Positions 18,924 to 22,221 of a DNA stretch of 64,000 nt are shown in pieces. Numbering within the stretch: the first letter of the stretch is position 1; every line of letters starts with the position of its first letter. Made by a program: the position numbers and the translations under genes. The notes beneath the pieces are model-generated. The model was not told the origin of the DNA and did not search any database. It saw nothing but the letters and a program-made list of their open reading frames with translations. The stretch covers positions 1-64,000 of IMG/VR virus record IMGVR_UViG_2595698357_000001. One strand, written 5' to 3'. Source of the stretch: a virus (Duplodnaviria; Caudoviricetes).

Positions 18924-19091
18924 TCAATCTTTGTGCTTGCTGATCTCGATAGCCTGGAGCTGGGCTTCGGCATCTTTCTCAGTGTCGTGTGTACCCAACA
19001 CCTTGGTGCCTGATTTGTTGGTGACTTCCCATTTGTCACCCACCTTGCGGATATGCTCACGGATGTTGAGGTAGTTCTGGAATGTGTTCAT
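18924..19091 (-). CDS. Small late protein with capsid-targeting-like N-terminus
   Basis: MNTFQNYLNIRE...; RBS GGAGG; CTAAATA at 19112-19118. Confidence 0.75.
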   Translation of the reverse strand: MNTFQNYLNIREHIRKVGDKWEVTNKSGTKVLGTHDTEKDAEAQLQAIEISKHKD

Positions 19092-19130
19092 GATAGCCTC
19101 CGGTTTCAACATATTTAGCCGAATCCAGGA

Positions 19131-19165
19131 TAAAAAGAAGCCCAGGTCAATCCCTACCTGGGCTG
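19131..19165 (-). terminator. Terminator closing the RNA cassette
   Basis: AGCCCAGGT-AGGGATTG-ACCTGGGCT followed by TCTTTTT on the minus strand. Confidence 0.8.
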
Positions 19166-19173
19166 TTGAAATT

Positions 19174-19250
19174 TGGCACCCCCGAAGGGGTGGGCTTCCG
19201 TCAATTTACTGTTAGACAAGCCACTGCCCGCAGACCAGCTGGCGACCGGT
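19174..19250 (-). ncRNA. Small CCA-ended structured RNA (putative)
   Basis: Ends CACCCC-TTCG-GGGGTG-CCA; 5' boundary uncertain. Confidence 0.35.
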
Positions 19251-19251
19251 T

Positions 19252-19325
19252 TGGCCGGGAGTCTAGGATTCGAACCTAGGACTCAAGCACCCTGTGCTTG
19301 CGTTTTACCGCTAAACTACTTCCCG
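19252..19325 (-). ncRNA. tRNA-Pro-like RNA with closed anticodon loop
   Basis: D arm GTTT/AAAC, T arm CTAGG-TTCGAAT-CCTAG, CCA end. Anticodon arm CAAGCAC-AGG-GTGCTTG lacks U33. Two acceptor mismatches. Confidence 0.7.
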
Positions 19326-19328
19326 ATT

Positions 19329-19404
19329 TGGTAGTCCCTGTTGGCTTTGAACCAACGACCAAGCGATTATGAGTCGCATGCTCTAACCACTGAGCTAAGG
19401 GACT
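19329..19404 (-). tRNA. tRNA with CAU anticodon, Ile2 (lysidine) type
   Basis: 76 nt canonical cloverleaf AGTCCCTTAGCTCAGTGGTTAGAGCATGCGACTCATAATCGCTTGGTCG...ACCA, very close to E. coli ileX as recalled. Confidence 0.92.
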
Positions 19405-19407
19405 GAA

Positions 19408-19612
19408 TGGTGTACTCAACCAAGGGATGCTAGACCTTATTTCCCGTTTGCGCATGATCAGTTCATGCGAGCCTCTTGAGCACCTTGCGGCAACTCTTCT
19501 GAAGGTCATCGGCCTGCTCTGGCCTCACTCCAGGAGTTTATTTTTCCAGGGCTTTCCATTCACATGTCTTAACCAGACCGGGATTCGGGCATGTGAAATT
19601 GGGTTGAGTACA
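19408..19612 (-). ncRNA. 205-nt CCA-ended structured RNA
   Basis: Perfect 11-bp terminal stem TGTACTCAACC/GGTTGAGTACA plus CCA; internal stems TTCACATG/CATGTGAA and CGCATGA/TCATGCG; GCAA tetraloop. Confidence 0.7.
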
Positions 19613-19616
19613 TTTT

Positions 19617-19784
19617 TGGCACCCGAGTGAGGATTCGAACCTCCTTATCCTTCTATCGTCTGGTCATACTCGCCCCGATTATCCTAGGTTCATCGGTTGC
19701 TTTCATCCCATATTGTCGTCGGACTACCCCGTTCCTCCTATCCCCGTCATTGGTGGCCTACCTCAGGGGGTGGGTAACTCGGAT
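19617..19784 (-). ncRNA. 168-nt RNA with tRNA-like acceptor and T arm, GGA-rich body
   Basis: ATCCGAGT/ACTCGGGT-G-CCA; T arm GAGG-TTCGAAT-CCTC. Confidence 0.7.
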
Positions 19785-19883
19785 TCAATTCTTGCTGGCT
19801 TACCATGCCAGCCGGGTCGCGATTTCAAAGTGTCCAACCACAGGATACTCAGAAGGTTTATCACAACGGTGAGGACACTGTTT

Positions 19884-19919
19884 CCAACGTTCTCAATGTT
19901 CTCAACGTTCTCAACGTTG
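19884..19919. repeat. Four 9-nt tandem repeats (TCAACGTTC)
   Basis: CCAACGTTC TCAATGTTC TCAACGTTC TCAACGTTG. Confidence 0.85.
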
Positions 19920-19924
19920 TGGTT

Positions 19925-19985
19925 TGGTGCACACAAGCAGGAGTCTAACCTGAAGTCCCTGCACTATGCCGGGCGTCTTGCATGC
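19925..19985 (-). ncRNA. D-armless tRNA-like mini RNA (about 61 nt)
   Basis: GCATGCAAG/CTTGTGTGC-A-CCA; T arm CAGG-TTAGACT-CCTG; one central hairpin. Confidence 0.6.
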
Positions 19986-19993
19986 ACCAAATT

Positions 19994-20167
19994 TGGCGCC
20001 ATGTCCTGGGGACGATCCAGGTGGGCTACCAGCTTTCAATCAAGGTCTCAGGTCCACGCAGTCCCGTCAACAACGATTTAGTTACTGGGTAGTCCTATGC
20101 CCAACCTCACCACTCATTTTAACGTTTCGCCTCCCTCTGCGTGGAGGAGGGAGCTAGAGCGTATGGC
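19994..20167 (-). ncRNA. About 174-nt CCA-ended RNA with T-like arm and probable pseudoknot
   Basis: GCCAT/ATGGC-G-CCA; CCTGG-ATCGTCC-CCAGG; loop of hairpin CTCCCTC/GAGGGAG is complementary to downstream CTGCGTGGA. Confidence 0.55.
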
Positions 20168-20191
20168 CGCAAACAAGGCAGTAATCTTTAT

Positions 20192-20265
20192 TGGTGTTGA
20201 GCACGGGTTTCAGTTATCCACAACTTCGACGCGCTCCCCATTGCTGGGAATATTATGTGCTCAAC
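20192..20265 (-). ncRNA. 74-nt CCA-ended RNA
   Basis: 9-bp stem GTTGAGCAC/GTGCTCAAC-A-CCA; internal TTCCCA-GCAA-TGGGGA. Confidence 0.6.
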
Positions 20266-20278
20266 CCAATAAAGACTT

Positions 20279-20785
20279 TGGAATCGCCCAGAGCAAGACT
20301 TCAGGCGGGCAGCGAGATCATCAGCAGGTTAGATGAGTGTCTCACTCCGGGCTATCCAAGGCCGGCCGATGGATTTCACAACCACTCATAAGAGCCTGAG
20401 CTGGCGCGGGTTGATAGCCCGGTTATGAAGCATCGAGTGATGCAAGTTACCTCACATCTCAGAGTTCGGTCAGTGGCTGCTTTGTCCTGGCTTCCGCCGT
20501 CGTACAACCGAACTCTGAGATGTGCGCCCCGAAGGGCGCCACGACCATTCTTTAACAGAGATGCCGAGTCTCTGGGCTTCTACCTTTTAGAGCTTCAGCC
20601 GTTTACAGGCACTGCCTGTGTTGGTATACAGCGAAAGCAACAGCGTAACAACACGTCATGCGGTGGCATAACTGAGAAGATTATCACCACGCCTGGTTAA
20701 CTGTGAATCCAGCGCCCCTGACAATAACCCTCTCAGTTATGTTCCCCCGTTTCTAATACACGGACGGGGGCACTCCATGGTCGTT
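20279..20785 (-). ncRNA. Large multi-helix structured RNA region (about 500 nt)
   Basis: 18-bp inverted repeat 20453-20470/20507-20524, 11-bp 20667-20677/20731-20741, CCGGGCTATC/GATAGCCCGG, UUCG hairpin, ends in CCA; no credible ORF. Confidence 0.55.
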
Positions 20786-20998
20786 TGGTAACGAGGGCGA
20801 CTCACCCCTCGCTGTGGGTTCGCGGTTAAGCGACCATCAGATACGCGTTATCGTTTGCATTTGATTTATGTGGTCAGTTTTCAAAAAGCCCGCATAATCG
20901 CTACGACGAGAACGAAAACCTGTTTGGGGTTAAGGGGGCGTTTCCGTGTGACTCGACCTCGACCCAGTCACCACTTAACCCCAAACAGCTTACCGCTC
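20786..20998 (-). ncRNA. Structured RNA containing a tmRNA-like tag frame
   Basis: 15-bp stem 20920-20934/20974-20988, then AAATCAAAT|GCA AAC GAT AAC GCG TAT CTG ATG GTC GCT TAA; 3' hairpin followed by TTACCA. Confidence 0.55.
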
Positions 20999-21008
20999 TA
21001 TGAATCTA

Positions 21009-21034
21009 ACTATACTCACCAACTTGTTATTGAC
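21009..21034 (-). promoter_or_regulatory. Promoter for the RNA cassette
   Basis: GTCAAT-N14-TATAGT; shares a 19-nt block with the promoter at 21599-21622. Confidence 0.7.
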
Positions 21035-21049
21035 AAAAACTTTATTTTA

Positions 21050-21140
21050 GGGTGGCCGGGGTGGTTCTCGAAGCCACAACATCGCGCTAATGTCGCCTCA
21101 GGCTGTACGCGCGCCACTCTACCAATTGAGCTACCCGGCC
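21050..21140 (-). ncRNA. tRNA-like RNA with expanded anticodon domain
   Basis: Acceptor GGCCGGG/CCCGGCC, D arm GCTC-AATTGGTA-GAGT, T loop TTCGAGA. Anticodon stem CGCGC/GCGCG encloses 21 nt with GCC-TGA-GGC. Ends ACCC. Confidence 0.7.
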
Positions 21141-21155
21141 AAAGTATGACATTCA

Positions 21156-21245
21156 ACATGGTTGGGAGATTAGCAGCCTCCGACCTCCCCTTACCGGGTC
21201 ATGACTCCGGCGGGGCGCTCTCGTTTTTCTGAGCTACAACCATGT
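21156..21245 (-). ncRNA. tRNA-like RNA with extended anticodon arm, no encoded CCA
   Basis: ACATGGTTG/CAACCATGT, D arm GCTC/GAGC, CCCC-G-CCGG-AGTCATGAC-CCGG-TAA-GGGG, degenerate T arm GGAG/CTCC. Confidence 0.6.
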
Positions 21246-21397
21246 CAAATGAAAGGATGTTTCGTATTCCTTACGGCTCCAGGCGTCCCCGGTGCGGCTG
21301 TTGGTGATTATTCTGCCTATTTACCTGCGCCCCTGGCTTTGGGATTACCACACTTGGATTCAGGTCCGCCGTGTGCAGGCTATTTCCCTCAATTTGT

Positions 21398-21574
21398 TTA
21401 CTTAGCCCCGGTCTCGTCTCTACACGACCCGAAGTCGTGTGTCCCGTGGGGGATCCCACAAAACTCAGAGAATTTGGCAACCCCACCATGTGTCGGATCA
21501 CCTTGTATAGTCGGCATCACCAGGGCAAGTAATGTTCCGACCGCGAGAAGTAACACCAGAAGAATCAGTTCCAT
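21398..21574 (-). CDS. Small membrane or secreted peptide (58 aa, absent from ORF track)
   Basis: RBS GAGGAGG; MELILLVLLLAVGTLLALVMPTIQGDPTHGGVAKFSEFCGIPHGTHDFGSCRDETGAK. Confidence 0.65.
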   Translation of the reverse strand: MELILLVLLLAVGTLLALVMPTIQGDPTHGGVAKFSEFCGIPHGTHDFGSCRDETGAK

Positions 21575-21598
21575 TTGTCCCTCCTCGCTATGAATCTA

Positions 21599-21622
21599 AC
21601 TATACTGCAACTCTTTATTGAT
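21599..21622 (-). promoter_or_regulatory. Promoter, paralog of 21009-21034
   Basis: ATCAAT-N12-TATAGT followed by TAGATTCATAG. Confidence 0.55.
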
Positions 21623-21633
21623 AAAAGCGCTTT

Positions 21634-22221
21634 TTACAAAAATTTATTCGCTACGTTGTTGAAAATAAACACATAATCAGAAGCACGCTCGGACGACATA
21701 TAATGAGTGCTTGGCTTGCTGTGCGGGTTCAGGGTTTGCTGCAGGCCGACACGCTCTGCCCAGCCATTGATGTTGGAACCGTAAAAGCCGATCACGCCGA
21801 CAGGCCAGATGCGACCACTGTCGCTGCGGATGTACTGAACTTCGAATTGCTTGTCACCACGGATCTCTACCAGGTGAATACGGAAGCGGGATTGTCTCCC
21901 TTCCGGCGTGGTCATGTGTGGCATCGGGTTGTAGATGTTGCCGAAGCGTTTACGGCGCGCCTGTGAGGATTGTTCCAATTCGGACTTCAGCATCTCACTA
22001 CACATGATGTTGATAGACATGGTCTTGCCAGTAGTCAACTCATATTGTGCCAGGCGCAGGGCTGTGACGGATATCTCACTGAACCCAACACCCTTGCCAG
22101 TACGTTCTTTCACATAGCCTGAGATGCGGTTCATGATTTCCATGTTGTTACTGCCTGCCCAGTTGTCGCACACAGGCTGGATATACTTCTGTACCACTGT
22201 TTTGATCTGCATGTTCTTCAT
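21634..22221 (-). CDS. Hypothetical protein
   Basis: 195 aa, RBS GAGGA, promoter ATCAAT-N14-TATTAT at 22257-22282. Confidence 0.8.
   Translation of the reverse strand: MKNMQIKTVVQKYIQPVCDNWAGSNNMEIMNRISGYVKERTGKGVGFSEISVTALRLAQYELTTGKTMSINIMCSEMLKSELEQSSQARRKRFGNIYNPMPHMTTPEGRQSRFRIHLVEIRGDKQFEVQYIRSDSGRIWPVGVIGFYGSNINGWAERVGLQQTLNPHSKPSTHYMSSERASDYVFIFNNVANKFL

What the first reader, a model, noticed from the sequence alone, without database searches (positions are those of the whole stretch)
20786..20998. Orphan tmRNA-type tag reading frame ANDNAYLMVA*
Seen: minus strand AAATCAAAT|GCA AAC GAT AAC GCG TAT CTG ATG GTC GCT TAA (20858-20826). It has no adjacent in-frame start or RBS and directly follows a structured element (GTTTTC/GAAAAC) and a 15-bp stem, at the head of a promoter-driven RNA. 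Known: tmRNA tags resume at GCA after an A-rich tract and read ANDENYALAA in E. coli (also 10 codons) or ANDN... in many bacteria; the AND motif binds SspB. No GGGG.../...CCACCA alanine acceptor flanks it. Inference: a stand-alone mRNA-like domain that may act in trans with a tRNA-like piece or host tmRNA/SmpB, redirect ribosome rescue, or act as a decoy.
Basis: partly seen in the sequence, partly recalled or inferred. Interest (0 to 1): 0.85.

Follow-up and report, generated by a model that had tools for sequence, protein, structure and literature searches.

The report
Phage tmRNA-like tag template without tRNA part
This phage, like hundreds of other enterobacterial phages including P1, carries a conserved small RNA that looks like the message half of the bacterial ribosome-rescue RNA (tmRNA) but has no recognisable tRNA half, which raises the question of how phages use or subvert ribosome rescue.

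Summary
The frame GCA AAC GAT AAC GCG TAT CTG ATG GTC GCT TAA (20858-20826, minus strand) lies about 150 nt behind a sigma-70-type promoter in a 2.5-kb ORF-poor tRNA region of a 157.8-kb Serratia Ackermannviridae phage. The surrounding ~165 nt (20906-20744) recur in 433 of 50,697 phage records from unrelated lineages (Ackermannviridae, N4-like Schitoviridae, P1, 7-11 and several smaller phages) and in 597 of 5,426 complete E. coli genomes. All 29 loci examined keep a frame of exactly 10 codons, GCA to TAA. It encodes AN[DE][DEN]x[FYVM]x[AMVQ][AV]A. One peptide, ANDDVVLMAA, is spelled in at least seven synonymous ways. Upstream indels shift the frame and remove the overlapping ATG. The stop codon sits in the loop of a helix-5-like hairpin, followed by two H-type pseudoknots with compensatory changes. 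Rfam tmRNA models hit the tag region below threshold, and a model built from the phage elements finds genuine tmRNA tag regions as its next-best hits. No tRNA-like domain, G3:U70 acceptor or SmpB gene was found. RNA-library contigs cover only this element. Best reading: a tmRNA-derived, free-standing tag template. How it reaches the ribosome is unknown.

The parts
21009..21036 (-). sigma-70-type promoter TTGTCA-16 nt-TATAGT; the -10 region and start (TATAGTTAGATTCATAG) recur near 21600
   Evidence: 10 of 12 matches; for the repeat
20909..20999 (-). Leader: a long imperfect helix (about 25 bp including the 15-bp stem 20988-20974/20934-20920) with a 39-nt apical insert. It sits where permuted tmRNAs carry P2 plus the tRNA-like domain. 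In other lineages a long helix with GGUAAG/CUUUCC cores and a variable apex takes its place
   Evidence: fold; compensatory stems in S115, T765 and Bue1 leaders; Rfam alignment places it at the deleted TLD position
20877..20906 (-). Nearly invariant 5' block UCGU-AGCGAUUAUGCGGG-CUUUUU-GAAAAC with a small hairpin CGUA/UGCG (20905-20891). It occupies the PK1 position, but a pseudoknot is not shown
   Evidence: invariant columns in A2 and A3; helix 1 never shows changes on both sides
20859..20876 (-). A-rich single-stranded linker UGACCACAUAAAUCAAAU before the resume codon (ACCA invariant). It aligns with the upstream region of permuted tmRNA consensus
20826..20858 (-). Tag frame: GCA resume codon, 10 codons ANDNAYLMVA, stop TAA (20828-20826)
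20812..20840 (-). Helix-5-like bipartite hairpin that pairs the last tag codons and presents the UAA stop in its apical loop
   Evidence: helices 2 and 3 (7 of 9 pairs change on both sides)
20780..20813 (-). Pseudoknot PK2: S1 AGCGAGG/CCUCGUU, S2 GUCG/CGAC
   Evidence: helices 4 and 5: 8 of 9 pairs change on both sides
20744..20779 (-). Pseudoknot PK3: S1 CAUGG/CCGUG, S2 CCCCCGU/ACGGGGG, conserved loop UAUUAGAA
   Evidence: found at the same offset in 21 of 23 sequences with seven different S1 and seven different S2 pairings
20667..20741 (-). 3' long hairpin (about 35 bp, CAUAACUGAGAGG.../...CUUCUCAGUUAUG) with apex CAGGGGCGCUGGAUUCACAGUUAACCAGGCGUG. It is the same module type that flanks the element in P1, Bue1 and N4-like phages, and in the window it has no T arm

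Best explanation
The element (core 20906-20744, minus strand) is a phage-borne RNA module derived from tmRNA that has kept only the mRNA-like half. From 5' to 3' it has a P2-like long helix, a conserved 5' block, an A-rich linker, a start-codon-less 10-codon tag frame that begins at GCA, a stop codon displayed in a helix-5-like hairpin loop, and two H-type pseudoknots. It is transcribed from its own early-type promoter within the phage's tRNA and tRNA-like RNA array. It probably accumulates as a stable RNA. I infer that ribosomes read the frame from GCA, as they resume on tmRNA, so that an ssrA-like degron (AND...VA/AA) is added to nascent chains of stalled ribosomes during infection. Because the module has no tRNA-like domain, entry must depend on a partner. 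That partner could be host tmRNA-SmpB or one of the neighbouring phage tRNA-like modules. Shown here: conservation, frame behaviour, structure, reciprocal similarity to tmRNA, absence of a canonical tRNA-like domain, and presence in RNA libraries. Inferred: translation of the frame and the route of delivery.
For: Distribution:
- 433 of 50,697 phage records match, across unrelated families (taxonomy).
- 597 of 5,426 E. coli genomes match, with 491 places on plasmids and 149 on chromosomes.

Frame:
- 24 of 24 loci have exactly 10 codons to the stop in the AND frame, while the other two frames vary.
- 23 of 24 have no in-frame ATG, GTG or TTG after the preceding stop.
- Variable columns by codon position are 5, 5 and 9.
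- ANDDVVLMAA is spelled by six different sequences and a seventh.
- The 5 further N4-like loci keep the frame.

Structure:
- 88% of cells are paired, against 31-44% when the partners are slid.
- 15 of 21 pairs change on both sides, and 0 of 500 shuffles reach the covariation score.
- PK2 plus PK3 are found in 21 of 23 sequences, against 30 of 460 shuffles.

Kinship with tmRNA:
- Rfam tmRNA_permuted hits the tag region in 11 of 11 loci at 21.7-31.2 bits. In the window it scores 19.3 bits.
- Model R1, built from the phage elements, hits the E. coli ssrA tag region at 20.9 bits, E 0.018 (16 of the loci held were searched).
- In an Erwinia genome the second hit of R1 is the true tmRNA gene.

Expression:
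- Contigs of four RNA libraries from three studies cover only 20697-20974 and 20897-21060 within 19000-21800.
Against: - No tRNA-like domain with G3:U70, T arm and CCA is linked to the frame in the window, in P1 or in most lineages. ARAGORN at default gives 0 of 28 loci. The TLD part of the Rfam models is deleted in the alignments. Only 11 of 28 loci have any T-arm motif 100-320 nt downstream.
- No mechanism is known by which a template not tethered to a tRNA-like domain is loaded into a stalled ribosome.
- The phage encodes no SmpB and no canonical tmRNA.
- All Rfam tmRNA scores are below gathering (47 bits).
- PK1 is not supported by covariation, and PK4 is absent.
- The excess of third-position change is modest. 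Half of the tag lies in a hairpin, so RNA structure also constrains it.
- RNA contigs cannot show ends, strand or level, and DNA carry-over cannot be excluded.
- Duplex formation with E. coli ssrA is no better than with shuffled sequence.
Confidence: 0.5

Rival explanations
1. It is a complete but non-canonical tmRNA. The tRNA-like domain exists in a form the detectors miss, for instance in the flanking long-helix modules whose apex begins ACAGG(U/G)G and in some lineages carries a T arm. It could also be the tRNA-like RNA with encoded ACCA that follows PK3 directly in ST4, KP8 and 7-11. Processing by RNase P, 3' nucleases and the CCA-adding enzyme would then give a one-piece or two-piece molecule with a chargeable end.
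For: - In ST4 and KP8 a 125-nt tRNA-like RNA follows PK3 after about 8 nt. Its acceptor stem is UACCAGU/ACUGGUA in ST4 and UACUGGU/ACCAGUA in KP8, which are compensatory changes, and it has a T arm and ACCA.
- 7-11, L009, S115, Carvaje and Mulvp2 have T-arm modules 140-305 nt after the resume codon.
- The upstream long helix sits where permuted tmRNAs carry P2 plus the TLD.
- Apex motifs such as CUGGAUUCAC resemble, by eye, the D-loop region of E. coli tmRNA.
Against: - The modules are not constant partners. 17 of 28 loci, including the window and P1, have no T-arm motif within 100-320 nt.
- phiG17 lacks the ST4-type tRNA-like RNA through a clean deletion between ACCAAT repeats.
- In P1 the upstream neighbour is a terminator-like hairpin.
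- No candidate has G3:U70.
- A message attached to the 5' end of an acceptor stem has no precedent.
- ARAGORN calls at relaxed thresholds pair the tag with unrelated tRNA halves and also give many nonsense tags.
Confidence: 0.2
2. It is a mimic or decoy that is not translated. It imitates the message and pseudoknot part of tmRNA to bind a host factor that recognises that part (ribosomal protein S1, the SmpB tail, RNase R), or to absorb a host defence nuclease that cuts tmRNA.
For: - There is no tRNA-like domain.
- The 5' block and the PK3 loop are strongly conserved in sequence, beyond what pairing alone needs.
- The element lies among tRNA and tRNA-like genes, a setting where phages are known (recalled, not from a call) to carry replacements or decoys for targeted host RNAs.
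Against: A decoy need not keep a reading frame. Here length (10 codons), stop codon and amino-acid character are kept while the nucleotides change, including purely synonymous spellings of one peptide. Indels are tolerated immediately upstream but never inside the frame.
Confidence: 0.15
3. It is an inert relic of a captured tmRNA gene, or an ordinary short ORF, or a chance resemblance.
For: All tmRNA model scores are below the curated thresholds. No function is shown.
Against: - It is conserved in 433 phage records of unrelated families, with compensatory base-pair changes.
- There is no in-frame start codon in 23 of 24 loci.
- Reciprocal model hits land on genuine tmRNA tag regions.
- It has its own promoter and is present in RNA libraries.
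Confidence: 0.05

Closest known systems
Bacterial tmRNA (ssrA), standard one-piece form, e.g. E. coli (fetched as L025)
   Same: A resume codon GCA without a start codon, preceded by an A-rich single strand. A 10-codon tag that begins AND and ends in small hydrophobic residues plus Ala (E. coli ANDENYALAA). The stop codon lies in the loop of helix 5. H-type pseudoknots follow the tag. Reciprocal model hits land on the tag region.
   Different: There is no tRNA-like domain: no G3:U70 acceptor stem, no T arm and CCA linked through P2. Only two downstream pseudoknots are present. PK1 is not demonstrable. There is no nucleotide-level match to host ssrA by blastn; only 597 of 5,426 E. coli genomes match at all, although all carry ssrA. 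The element is carried by phages and P1-type plasmids.
Permuted two-piece tmRNA of beta- and alphaproteobacteria and cyanobacteria (Rfam RF04321, RF01850)
   Same: These are the best-scoring Rfam relatives (up to 31.2 bits). The upstream linker and tag resemble the consensus ...CAGAGCAAAACCAUAAAUGCAAACGAUAAC.... A long helix directly upstream of the 5' block occupies the position of P2.
   Different: The apex of that helix holds a variable insert instead of the T arm, acceptor ends and CCA. In the Rfam alignments the 81-106-nt TLD part of the model is deleted or replaced by the leader insert: 106 to 4 nt in Bue1, 81 to 61 nt in the window. Scores are below gathering.
Phage-encoded tmRNAs and the TLD-only tmRNA of mycobacteriophage DS6A (Hudson et al. 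2014, PMC4131195, passages read; 2025 tmRNA database paper, PMC11915505, passages read)
   Same: Phages carry parts of the trans-translation system. Incomplete forms exist and one of them, the TLD alone, is reported there to inhibit host tmRNA.
   Different: DS6A keeps the tRNA half and lacks the tag. This element is the converse: it keeps the tag and lacks the tRNA half. The 2014 survey of 543 RefSeq bacterial viruses reported ssrA only in mycobacteriophages, and named Bacillus phage G and DS6A from outside that set. The forms listed in the passages of the 2025 paper that I read are standard, permuted, intron and two 'no CDS' forms; none is a message-only form. The supplementary lists could not be opened.

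Membership tests
tmRNA (ssrA; Rfam RF00023 / RF04321 / RF01850) | tRNA-like domain: acceptor stem with G3:U70, T arm, 3' CCA, chargeable with alanine | tested here: not met
   ARAGORN at default gives 0 tmRNA calls in the window, in 8 loci and in 28 loci. RF00023 finds nothing in the whole phage record. The TLD part of the Rfam models is deleted in the alignments. The T-arm and acceptor scan finds no consistent partner and no G3:U70.
tmRNA (ssrA; Rfam RF00023 / RF04321 / RF01850) | Tag reading frame without a start codon, opening at a resume codon (usually GCN) and closed by a stop codon | tested here: met
   GCA...TAA of 10 codons in 24 of 24 loci, and no in-frame start in 23 of 24. 5 of 5 further loci keep it.
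tmRNA (ssrA; Rfam RF00023 / RF04321 / RF01850) | Stop codon presented in the loop of helix 5, with the distal tag codons paired | tested here: met
   Helices 2 and 3: 7 of 9 pairs change on both sides. Also seen in the fold.
tmRNA (ssrA; Rfam RF00023 / RF04321 / RF01850) | Pseudoknots around the message (PK1 upstream, PK2-PK4 downstream) | tested here: inconclusive
   PK2 and PK3 are supported. The PK1 position holds an invariant block with only a 3-4-bp hairpin and no compensatory change (helix 1). No PK4 is present.
tmRNA (ssrA; Rfam RF00023 / RF04321 / RF01850) | Score at or above the curated gathering threshold of a tmRNA covariance model | tested here: not met
   The window scores 19.3 bits (RF04321, gathering 47) and 13.8 bits (RF01850, gathering 84). 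Eleven further loci score 21.7-31.2 bits.
tmRNA (ssrA; Rfam RF00023 / RF04321 / RF01850) | Works with SmpB and tags nascent chains on stalled ribosomes | not testable with these tools
   No SmpB gene is found in the phage record. Whether host SmpB is used is unknown.
Permuted (two-piece) tmRNA | Acceptor piece (T arm, 3' acceptor strand, CCA) encoded upstream of the coding piece and paired to it through P2 and the acceptor stem | tested here: not met
   The upstream long helix encloses a 39-nt hairpin in the window and variable inserts elsewhere. No CCA-ended acceptor strand is seen. In P1 the upstream neighbour is a terminator-like hairpin.

The most novel reading that the evidence does not exclude
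This is a new class of trans-translation RNA: a free-standing tag template with no tRNA-like domain, spread by phages as different as P1, N4-like and Vi1-like viruses. It would be loaded onto stalled host ribosomes in trans, either handed over by host alanyl-tmRNA-SmpB or docked to one of the phage's own CCA-ended tRNA-like RNAs. The phage, and not the host, would then dictate which degron (AND...LMVA/LAVA/VAA) is put on unfinished proteins during infection. If true, template choice in ribosome rescue is not hard-wired to the covalent tRNA-mRNA design.
Probability: 0.3. Interest if true: 0.92.

Novelty: new variant of a known kind. Interest (0 to 1): 0.82.

Why it matters
tmRNA is defined by having tRNA and mRNA functions in one molecule, or in two tightly paired pieces. 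A conserved message-only relative is present in hundreds of well-studied coliphages, including P1, and in about one in nine complete E. coli genomes. Standard annotation (ARAGORN at default settings, Rfam at gathering thresholds) does not see it. It would mean one of two things: ribosome rescue can use a template supplied in trans, or phages have a previously unrecognised way to interfere with rescue and tagging. Either answer can be tested directly in E. coli K-12 with P1 or N4-like phages. The finding also draws attention to the ORF-free 'tRNA regions' of these phages, which are arrays of modular structured RNAs and not filler.

Tried and rejected
- **Canonical tmRNA.** ARAGORN at default gave none. 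Rfam at gathering gave only tRNAs. RF00023 and SmpB are not in the whole phage record.
- **ARAGORN at relaxed thresholds.** -ps90 gave 6 calls and -ps85 gave 34 calls in 28 loci. It does read the family tag in several loci, but it pairs it with unrelated neighbouring tRNA halves and gives many nonsense tags. I reject it as evidence for a tRNA-like domain.
- **Standard topology with a distant 5' acceptor strand.** A 7-of-7 partner search around every T-arm motif gave matches at about the rate expected by chance (my estimate is about 0.7 per 700 nt). The S115 hit (GCUGUUU with AAACGGC) is better explained by a local tRNA-like module, GCCGUU...AACGGC-U-CCA.
- **The invariant ACCA before the tag as an internal acceptor end.** Rejected, because it aligns with AGCA/ACCA in the linker of genuine permuted tmRNA consensus.
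- **Pairing with host tmRNA.** Duplex energies with E. coli ssrA were within the range of mononucleotide shuffles for 4 phage elements. This is a crude whole-length test. One search timed out.
- **Recent capture of host ssrA.** blastn against E. coli genomes does not match ssrA itself, and by eye there is no alignment beyond GCAAACGA.
- **Conventional small ORF, or the MQTITRI frame.** Rejected.
- **Parts of 19000-21800 without RNA contig cover.** I draw no conclusion from these holes. The contig ends coincide with hairpin loops and are probably assembly breaks, so they say nothing about RNA ends.
- **Pattern scans.** They found few copies outside the phage collection: 6 and 7 IMG/VR stretches, 2 species-representative genomes, and 1 of 101 genomes of one family with model R1.
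- **Literature searches.**
  - tmRNA, phage-encoded, tRNA-like domain, tag peptide
  - tmRNA-like, bacteriophage
  - tmRNA, Ackermannviridae
  - tmRNA, phage, mRNA-like domain, two-piece
  - six of the tag peptides as words: 0 papers
  - tmRNA, bacteriophage P1, ban operon
  - tmRNA, phage genomes, tRNA-like, pseudoknot, degradation tag
  - ssrA-like, phage

  None of the listings or passages I read describes this element. The P1 genome paper was not held. Supplementary lists of the 2025 tmRNA database (79 phage sequences) and of the 10,006 viral structured-RNA candidates (PMC10690425, passages read) were closed and could contain it.
Full report
**What is in the window.** About 150 nt upstream lies a promoter-like site, TTGTCA-16-TATAGT, at 21036-21009. 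An almost invariant block follows, which contains GTTTTC...GAAAAC, and then an A-rich linker and the frame. The 349 nt from 21003 to 20655 fold at -134.1 kcal/mol, against -107.2 +/- 5.7 for 100 dinucleotide shuffles (z = -4.7). In frame upstream there are only 5 sense codons after a stop and no ATG, GTG or TTG. The window belongs to a 157,834-bp virus record. The 2.6 kb around the finding are 98.7% identical to Serratia phage KNP4 and 88-96% identical to other Miltonvirus phages (Ackermannviridae). The frame sits in a stretch of roughly 2.5 kb (19112-21634) without convincing genes. That stretch holds two tRNAs and several tRNA-like structures.

**Standard detectors see nothing.** ARAGORN at default finds three tRNA-type genes and no tmRNA. 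Rfam at gathering thresholds finds only two tRNAs in the 64 kb. With relaxed E-values there are two weak hits exactly on the frame. One is tmRNA_permuted (RF04321) at 19.3 bits, where gathering is 47. The other is beta_tmRNA (RF01850) at 13.8 bits, where gathering is 84. In both alignments the score comes from the linker, the tag and the hairpin behind it. The part of the model that describes the tRNA-like domain is deleted or replaced by the leader insert.

**The element is widespread.** A blastn search with 311 nt or with 196 nt around the frame finds 433 of 50,697 phage records. They include:
- Ackermannviridae of five genera (Miltonvirus, Kuttervirus, Agtrevirus, Taipeivirus, Nezavisimistyvirus)
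- N4-like Schitoviridae (Gamaleyavirus, Kaypoctavirus, Pylasvirus, Triduovirus)
- P1, P7, D6 and SJ46
- Salmonella phage 7-11 and its relatives
- several phages of about 46-58 kb of Klebsiella, Shigella, Escherichia and Enterobacter (for example Cedarrivervirus Sf11 and Carvajevirus)

Almost none of these records annotates anything under the match. In 5,426 complete E. coli genomes, 597 hold a copy, with 491 places on plasmids (P1-like) and 149 on chromosomes. The host's own ssrA is not among the blastn matches. Outside phages the element is rare. I found 2 of the species-representative genomes by pattern and 1 of 101 genomes of one family with a covariance model. In P1 the element lies in the leader of the C1-controlled ban operon, between the annotated 'dicF-like region' and tRNA-Asn.

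**The frame behaves like a translated tag.** I extracted 24 loci (two of them from one contig) and later 5 more N4-like loci.
- In all 29, the distance from GCA to the first stop is exactly 10 codons and the stop is TAA. The other two frames stop after 4-8 or 1-23 codons.
- The peptides are ANDNAYLMVA, ANDNAFLMAA, ANDDLMMVAA (P1), ANEEAYLMVA, ANDNAFRVAA, ANDNTFLAVA, ANEEMYLAVA, ANDNEFKVAA, ANDDAVLMAA, ANDDVVLMAA, ANDDLMLAAA, ANDDLMLQAA and ANDNAYLAVA.
- ANDDVVLMAA is written in six different ways and in a seventh in KP8 and Pylas. All the differences are synonymous.
- Variable columns fall 5, 5 and 9 on codon positions 1, 2 and 3.
- Just upstream, single-base indels shift the frame. The ATG of the overlapping MQT... 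frame is missing in Kevin, 3M and Bue1.
- 23 of 24 loci have no in-frame start between the preceding stop and GCA.

From general knowledge of tmRNA tags (recalled, not from a call), the pattern fits proteobacterial ssrA degrons: AND at the start and a small hydrophobic residue plus Ala at the end. The Erwinia host tag read by ARAGORN here is ANDENYALAA.

**The RNA around the frame has the architecture of a tmRNA message domain.**
- The last tag codons pair with the sequence behind the stop codon, so that UAA sits in the apical loop of a bipartite hairpin, as in tmRNA helix 5.
- Two H-type pseudoknots follow.
- On the 23-sequence alignment A2, the helices I could place in fixed columns are the small 5' hairpin, helix 5 (outer and inner), and PK2 stems 1 and 2.
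  - 88.0% of cells in these helices are paired, against 31-44% when the 3' partners are slid by 1-3 columns.
  - 15 of 21 pairs change on both sides.
  - 0 of 500 shuffles reach the covariation score.
- PK3 is misaligned by MAFFT, so I searched each sequence with a fixed descriptor. PK2 and PK3 are found at the same offsets (+12 to +14 and +46 to +48 after the stop) in 21 of 23 sequences. Two pseudoknots of at least 9 bp each appear in 30 of 460 shuffles.
- The two misses are Bue1, where the descriptor chose a wrong PK2 although the stems are visible by eye, and L015, which has a deletion of PK2.
- Stems differ freely between lineages. PK2 S2 is GUCG/CGAC, CCGA/UCGG, CCAG/CUGG or CCAA/UUGG. 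PK3 S2 is CCCCCGU/ACGGGGG, GGCGGGAG/CUCCCGUC, GCCCUGA/UCAGGGC or GCCCG/UGGGC.
- The block in the PK1 position is almost invariant and shows no compensatory change, so I do not claim a PK1. There is no PK4.

**Kinship with tmRNA holds in both directions.** RF04321 hits the tag region in 11 of 11 further loci at 21.7-31.2 bits, and RF01850 hits it in 9 of the 11. All are below gathering. In Bue1 the alignment shows linker and tag matched to the consensus and the 106-nt TLD part reduced to 4 nt. In the other direction, I built a covariance model from 27 phage elements (138 positions, 17 pairs). It scores the family at 87-149 bits. Its best hit outside the family, in the 16 sources searched, is the tag region of E. 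coli ssrA at 20.9 bits, E 0.018. Two weaker matches had E above 0.7. In a 4.7-Mb Erwinia genome the model finds the prophage copy, and its second hit lies inside the gene that ARAGORN calls tmRNA (22.4 bits).

**There is no tRNA half.**
- The phage record has no RF00023 match and no SmpB.
- I scanned 28 loci for T-arm motifs followed by an acceptor strand. Eleven have such a motif 100-320 nt behind the resume codon. Seventeen do not, including the window (the nearest downstream motif is at +1214) and P1 (the first is the ordinary tRNA-Asn at +452).
- Where a tRNA-like RNA follows PK3 directly (ST4, KP8, Bp4, 7-11, L009), it is a self-contained module with its own 5' acceptor strand.
  - In ST4 versus KP8 the acceptor stem even shows compensatory changes, and the RNA ends in ACCA.
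  - Its close relative phiG17 lacks the module through a clean deletion between ACCAAT repeats.
- None of these stems has G3:U70.
- In P1 and in the Erwinia prophage the upstream neighbour is a terminator-like hairpin.

Only the unit from the long upstream helix to PK3 is constant, so 'stand-alone message domain' is a fair description. I cannot exclude that lineage-specific flanking modules supply a tRNA-like function. I keep that as the main rival.

**The flanks are modular.**
- In most lineages the element is bracketed by long imperfect helices. Their strands share the cores ...AGGUAAGAGCAUU... and ...AGUGCUCUUUCC....
- The apices of these helices begin ACAGG(U/G)G. They carry either a plain hairpin (window, P1, one N4-like module) or a small hairpin plus a T arm placed directly against the 3' strand (Carvaje, Mulvp2, S115, Bue1).
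- In the window the upstream helix has the same GGUAAG motif. It sits where permuted tmRNAs have P2 with the tRNA-like domain at its tip.
- One can read this as a tmRNA-type scaffold whose tip was replaced. I mark that as inference.

**Expression.** Of the public runs that hold the stretch, four RNA libraries from three studies were laid on 19000-21800. Each gave a single contig with no base substitutions and the same one-base deletion at 20926, so the source is a close relative. The contigs cover 20697-20966, 20765-20974 (in two runs) and 20897-21060. Nothing else in the 2.8 kb is covered. Contigs cannot give ends, strand or level. Their ends fall in hairpin loops, where assemblers break, and DNA carry-over is not excluded. 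Even so, finding only this element in small RNA libraries fits an abundant, stable RNA. The last contig runs through the promoter into the upstream tRNA-like gene, which suggests some read-through transcription.

**How it most likely works.**
- Shown: a conserved, structured, promoter-driven RNA with the message-domain anatomy of tmRNA and a frame under protein-level constraint.
- Inferred: ribosomes read the frame from GCA as they resume on tmRNA and add an ssrA-like degron.
- Unknown: delivery. The candidates are hand-over from host alanyl-tmRNA-SmpB, docking to a phage tRNA-like RNA, or processing that creates a chargeable end in some lineages.

A crude duplex test with E. coli ssrA gave nothing above shuffles. 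A non-translated decoy remains possible, but it does not explain the frame behaviour. I put 0.5 on the tag-template reading, 0.2 on a hidden non-canonical tRNA-like domain, 0.15 on a decoy and 0.05 on a relic or chance. The rest is unassigned.

**Novelty.** None of the eight literature searches listed under Tried and rejected, nor the passages I read, describes this element. Six of the tag peptides searched as words occur in 0 papers.
- The 2014 survey of 543 RefSeq bacterial viruses found ssrA only in mycobacteriophages, and named Bacillus phage G and DS6A from outside that set (passages).
- In the passages I read, the 2025 database paper lists 79 phage sequences and forms without a tag. It lists no form without the tRNA part (passages).
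- Supplementary tables of that paper and of the survey of viral structured RNAs (passages) were closed and could hold it.
- The P1 genome paper was not held.

I therefore rate it a new variant of a known kind, the converse of the TLD-only tmRNA of phage DS6A, with that caveat.

Noticed in passing
window 21050-21141 (-): A tRNA-like gene just upstream of the element's promoter, with normal acceptor, D and T arms but about 22 extra nt in the anticodon loop. ARAGORN calls it tRNA-Cys(aca); Rfam tRNA scores 43.9 bits, found only in the relaxed search. The acceptor is GGCCGGG/CCCGGCC followed by ACC, with no G3:U70. A similar 'tRNA-Cys(aca)' is annotated directly after the element in phage Bp4.
   Followed up: partly
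window about 19625-19784 (-): A giant tRNA-like RNA of about 160 nt: 5' AUCCGAG ... T arm GGAGGUUCGAAUCCUCA ... CUCGGGU-G-CCA. No detector calls it. The same T arm and acceptor end occur in Kevin and 3M. Analogous 125-nt RNAs with encoded NCCA occur in ST4/KP8 (compensatory acceptor changes) and in S115/T765.
   Followed up: partly
window 19112-21634: About 2.5 kb without convincing genes, made of modular structured RNAs. It contains long hairpins (for example 20454-20523) and a module ...CAGAGACUCGGCAUCUCUGUUAAAGAA... near 20540-20575. That module is conserved in Bue1 and resembles a stretch in ChubbyThor. Elsewhere in the ChubbyThor locus Rfam gives a sub-threshold STnc100 hit (32.9 bits, gathering 47).
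   Followed up: no
window 21590-21625 (-) and 21398-21574 (-): A second copy of the promoter and start motif (GCAGTATAGTTAGATTCATAG) drives a 58-aa hydrophobic ORF, MELILLVLLLAVGTLLALV....
   Followed up: no
window about 19885-19920 (-): Short tandem repeat (GTTGAGAAC-type units, about four copies) inside the non-coding stretch.
   Followed up: no
L003 (phage P1) 2501-2675: In P1 the element fills the unannotated gap between the 'dicF-like region' and tRNA-Asn in the leader of the C1-controlled ban operon.
   Followed up: partly
L026-L030 (N4-like phages), e.g. L027 after the tRNA-like gene: Another recurrent non-coding module, GUCCAGACGAUAUCUGAGUGACUAUAAAAACAGAUGG...CCAGGUGGAAUCCCUGGCA, appears at different places in phiG17, Bp4, KP8 and phi1_146050.
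   Followed up: no
L007, L013, L017, L018, L019, L021 downstream of PK3: A conserved downstream RNA in which two hairpin loops are complementary to each other...GUUGUGGUGAAUGCGCAGGCUGAUGCGC...CCGGAGAUCAGCACCGGCCACCACAAC. GCUGAU pairs with AUCAGC, and a long-range helix GUUGUGGUG/CACCACAAC closes it. It is not in Rfam at gathering.
   Followed up: no
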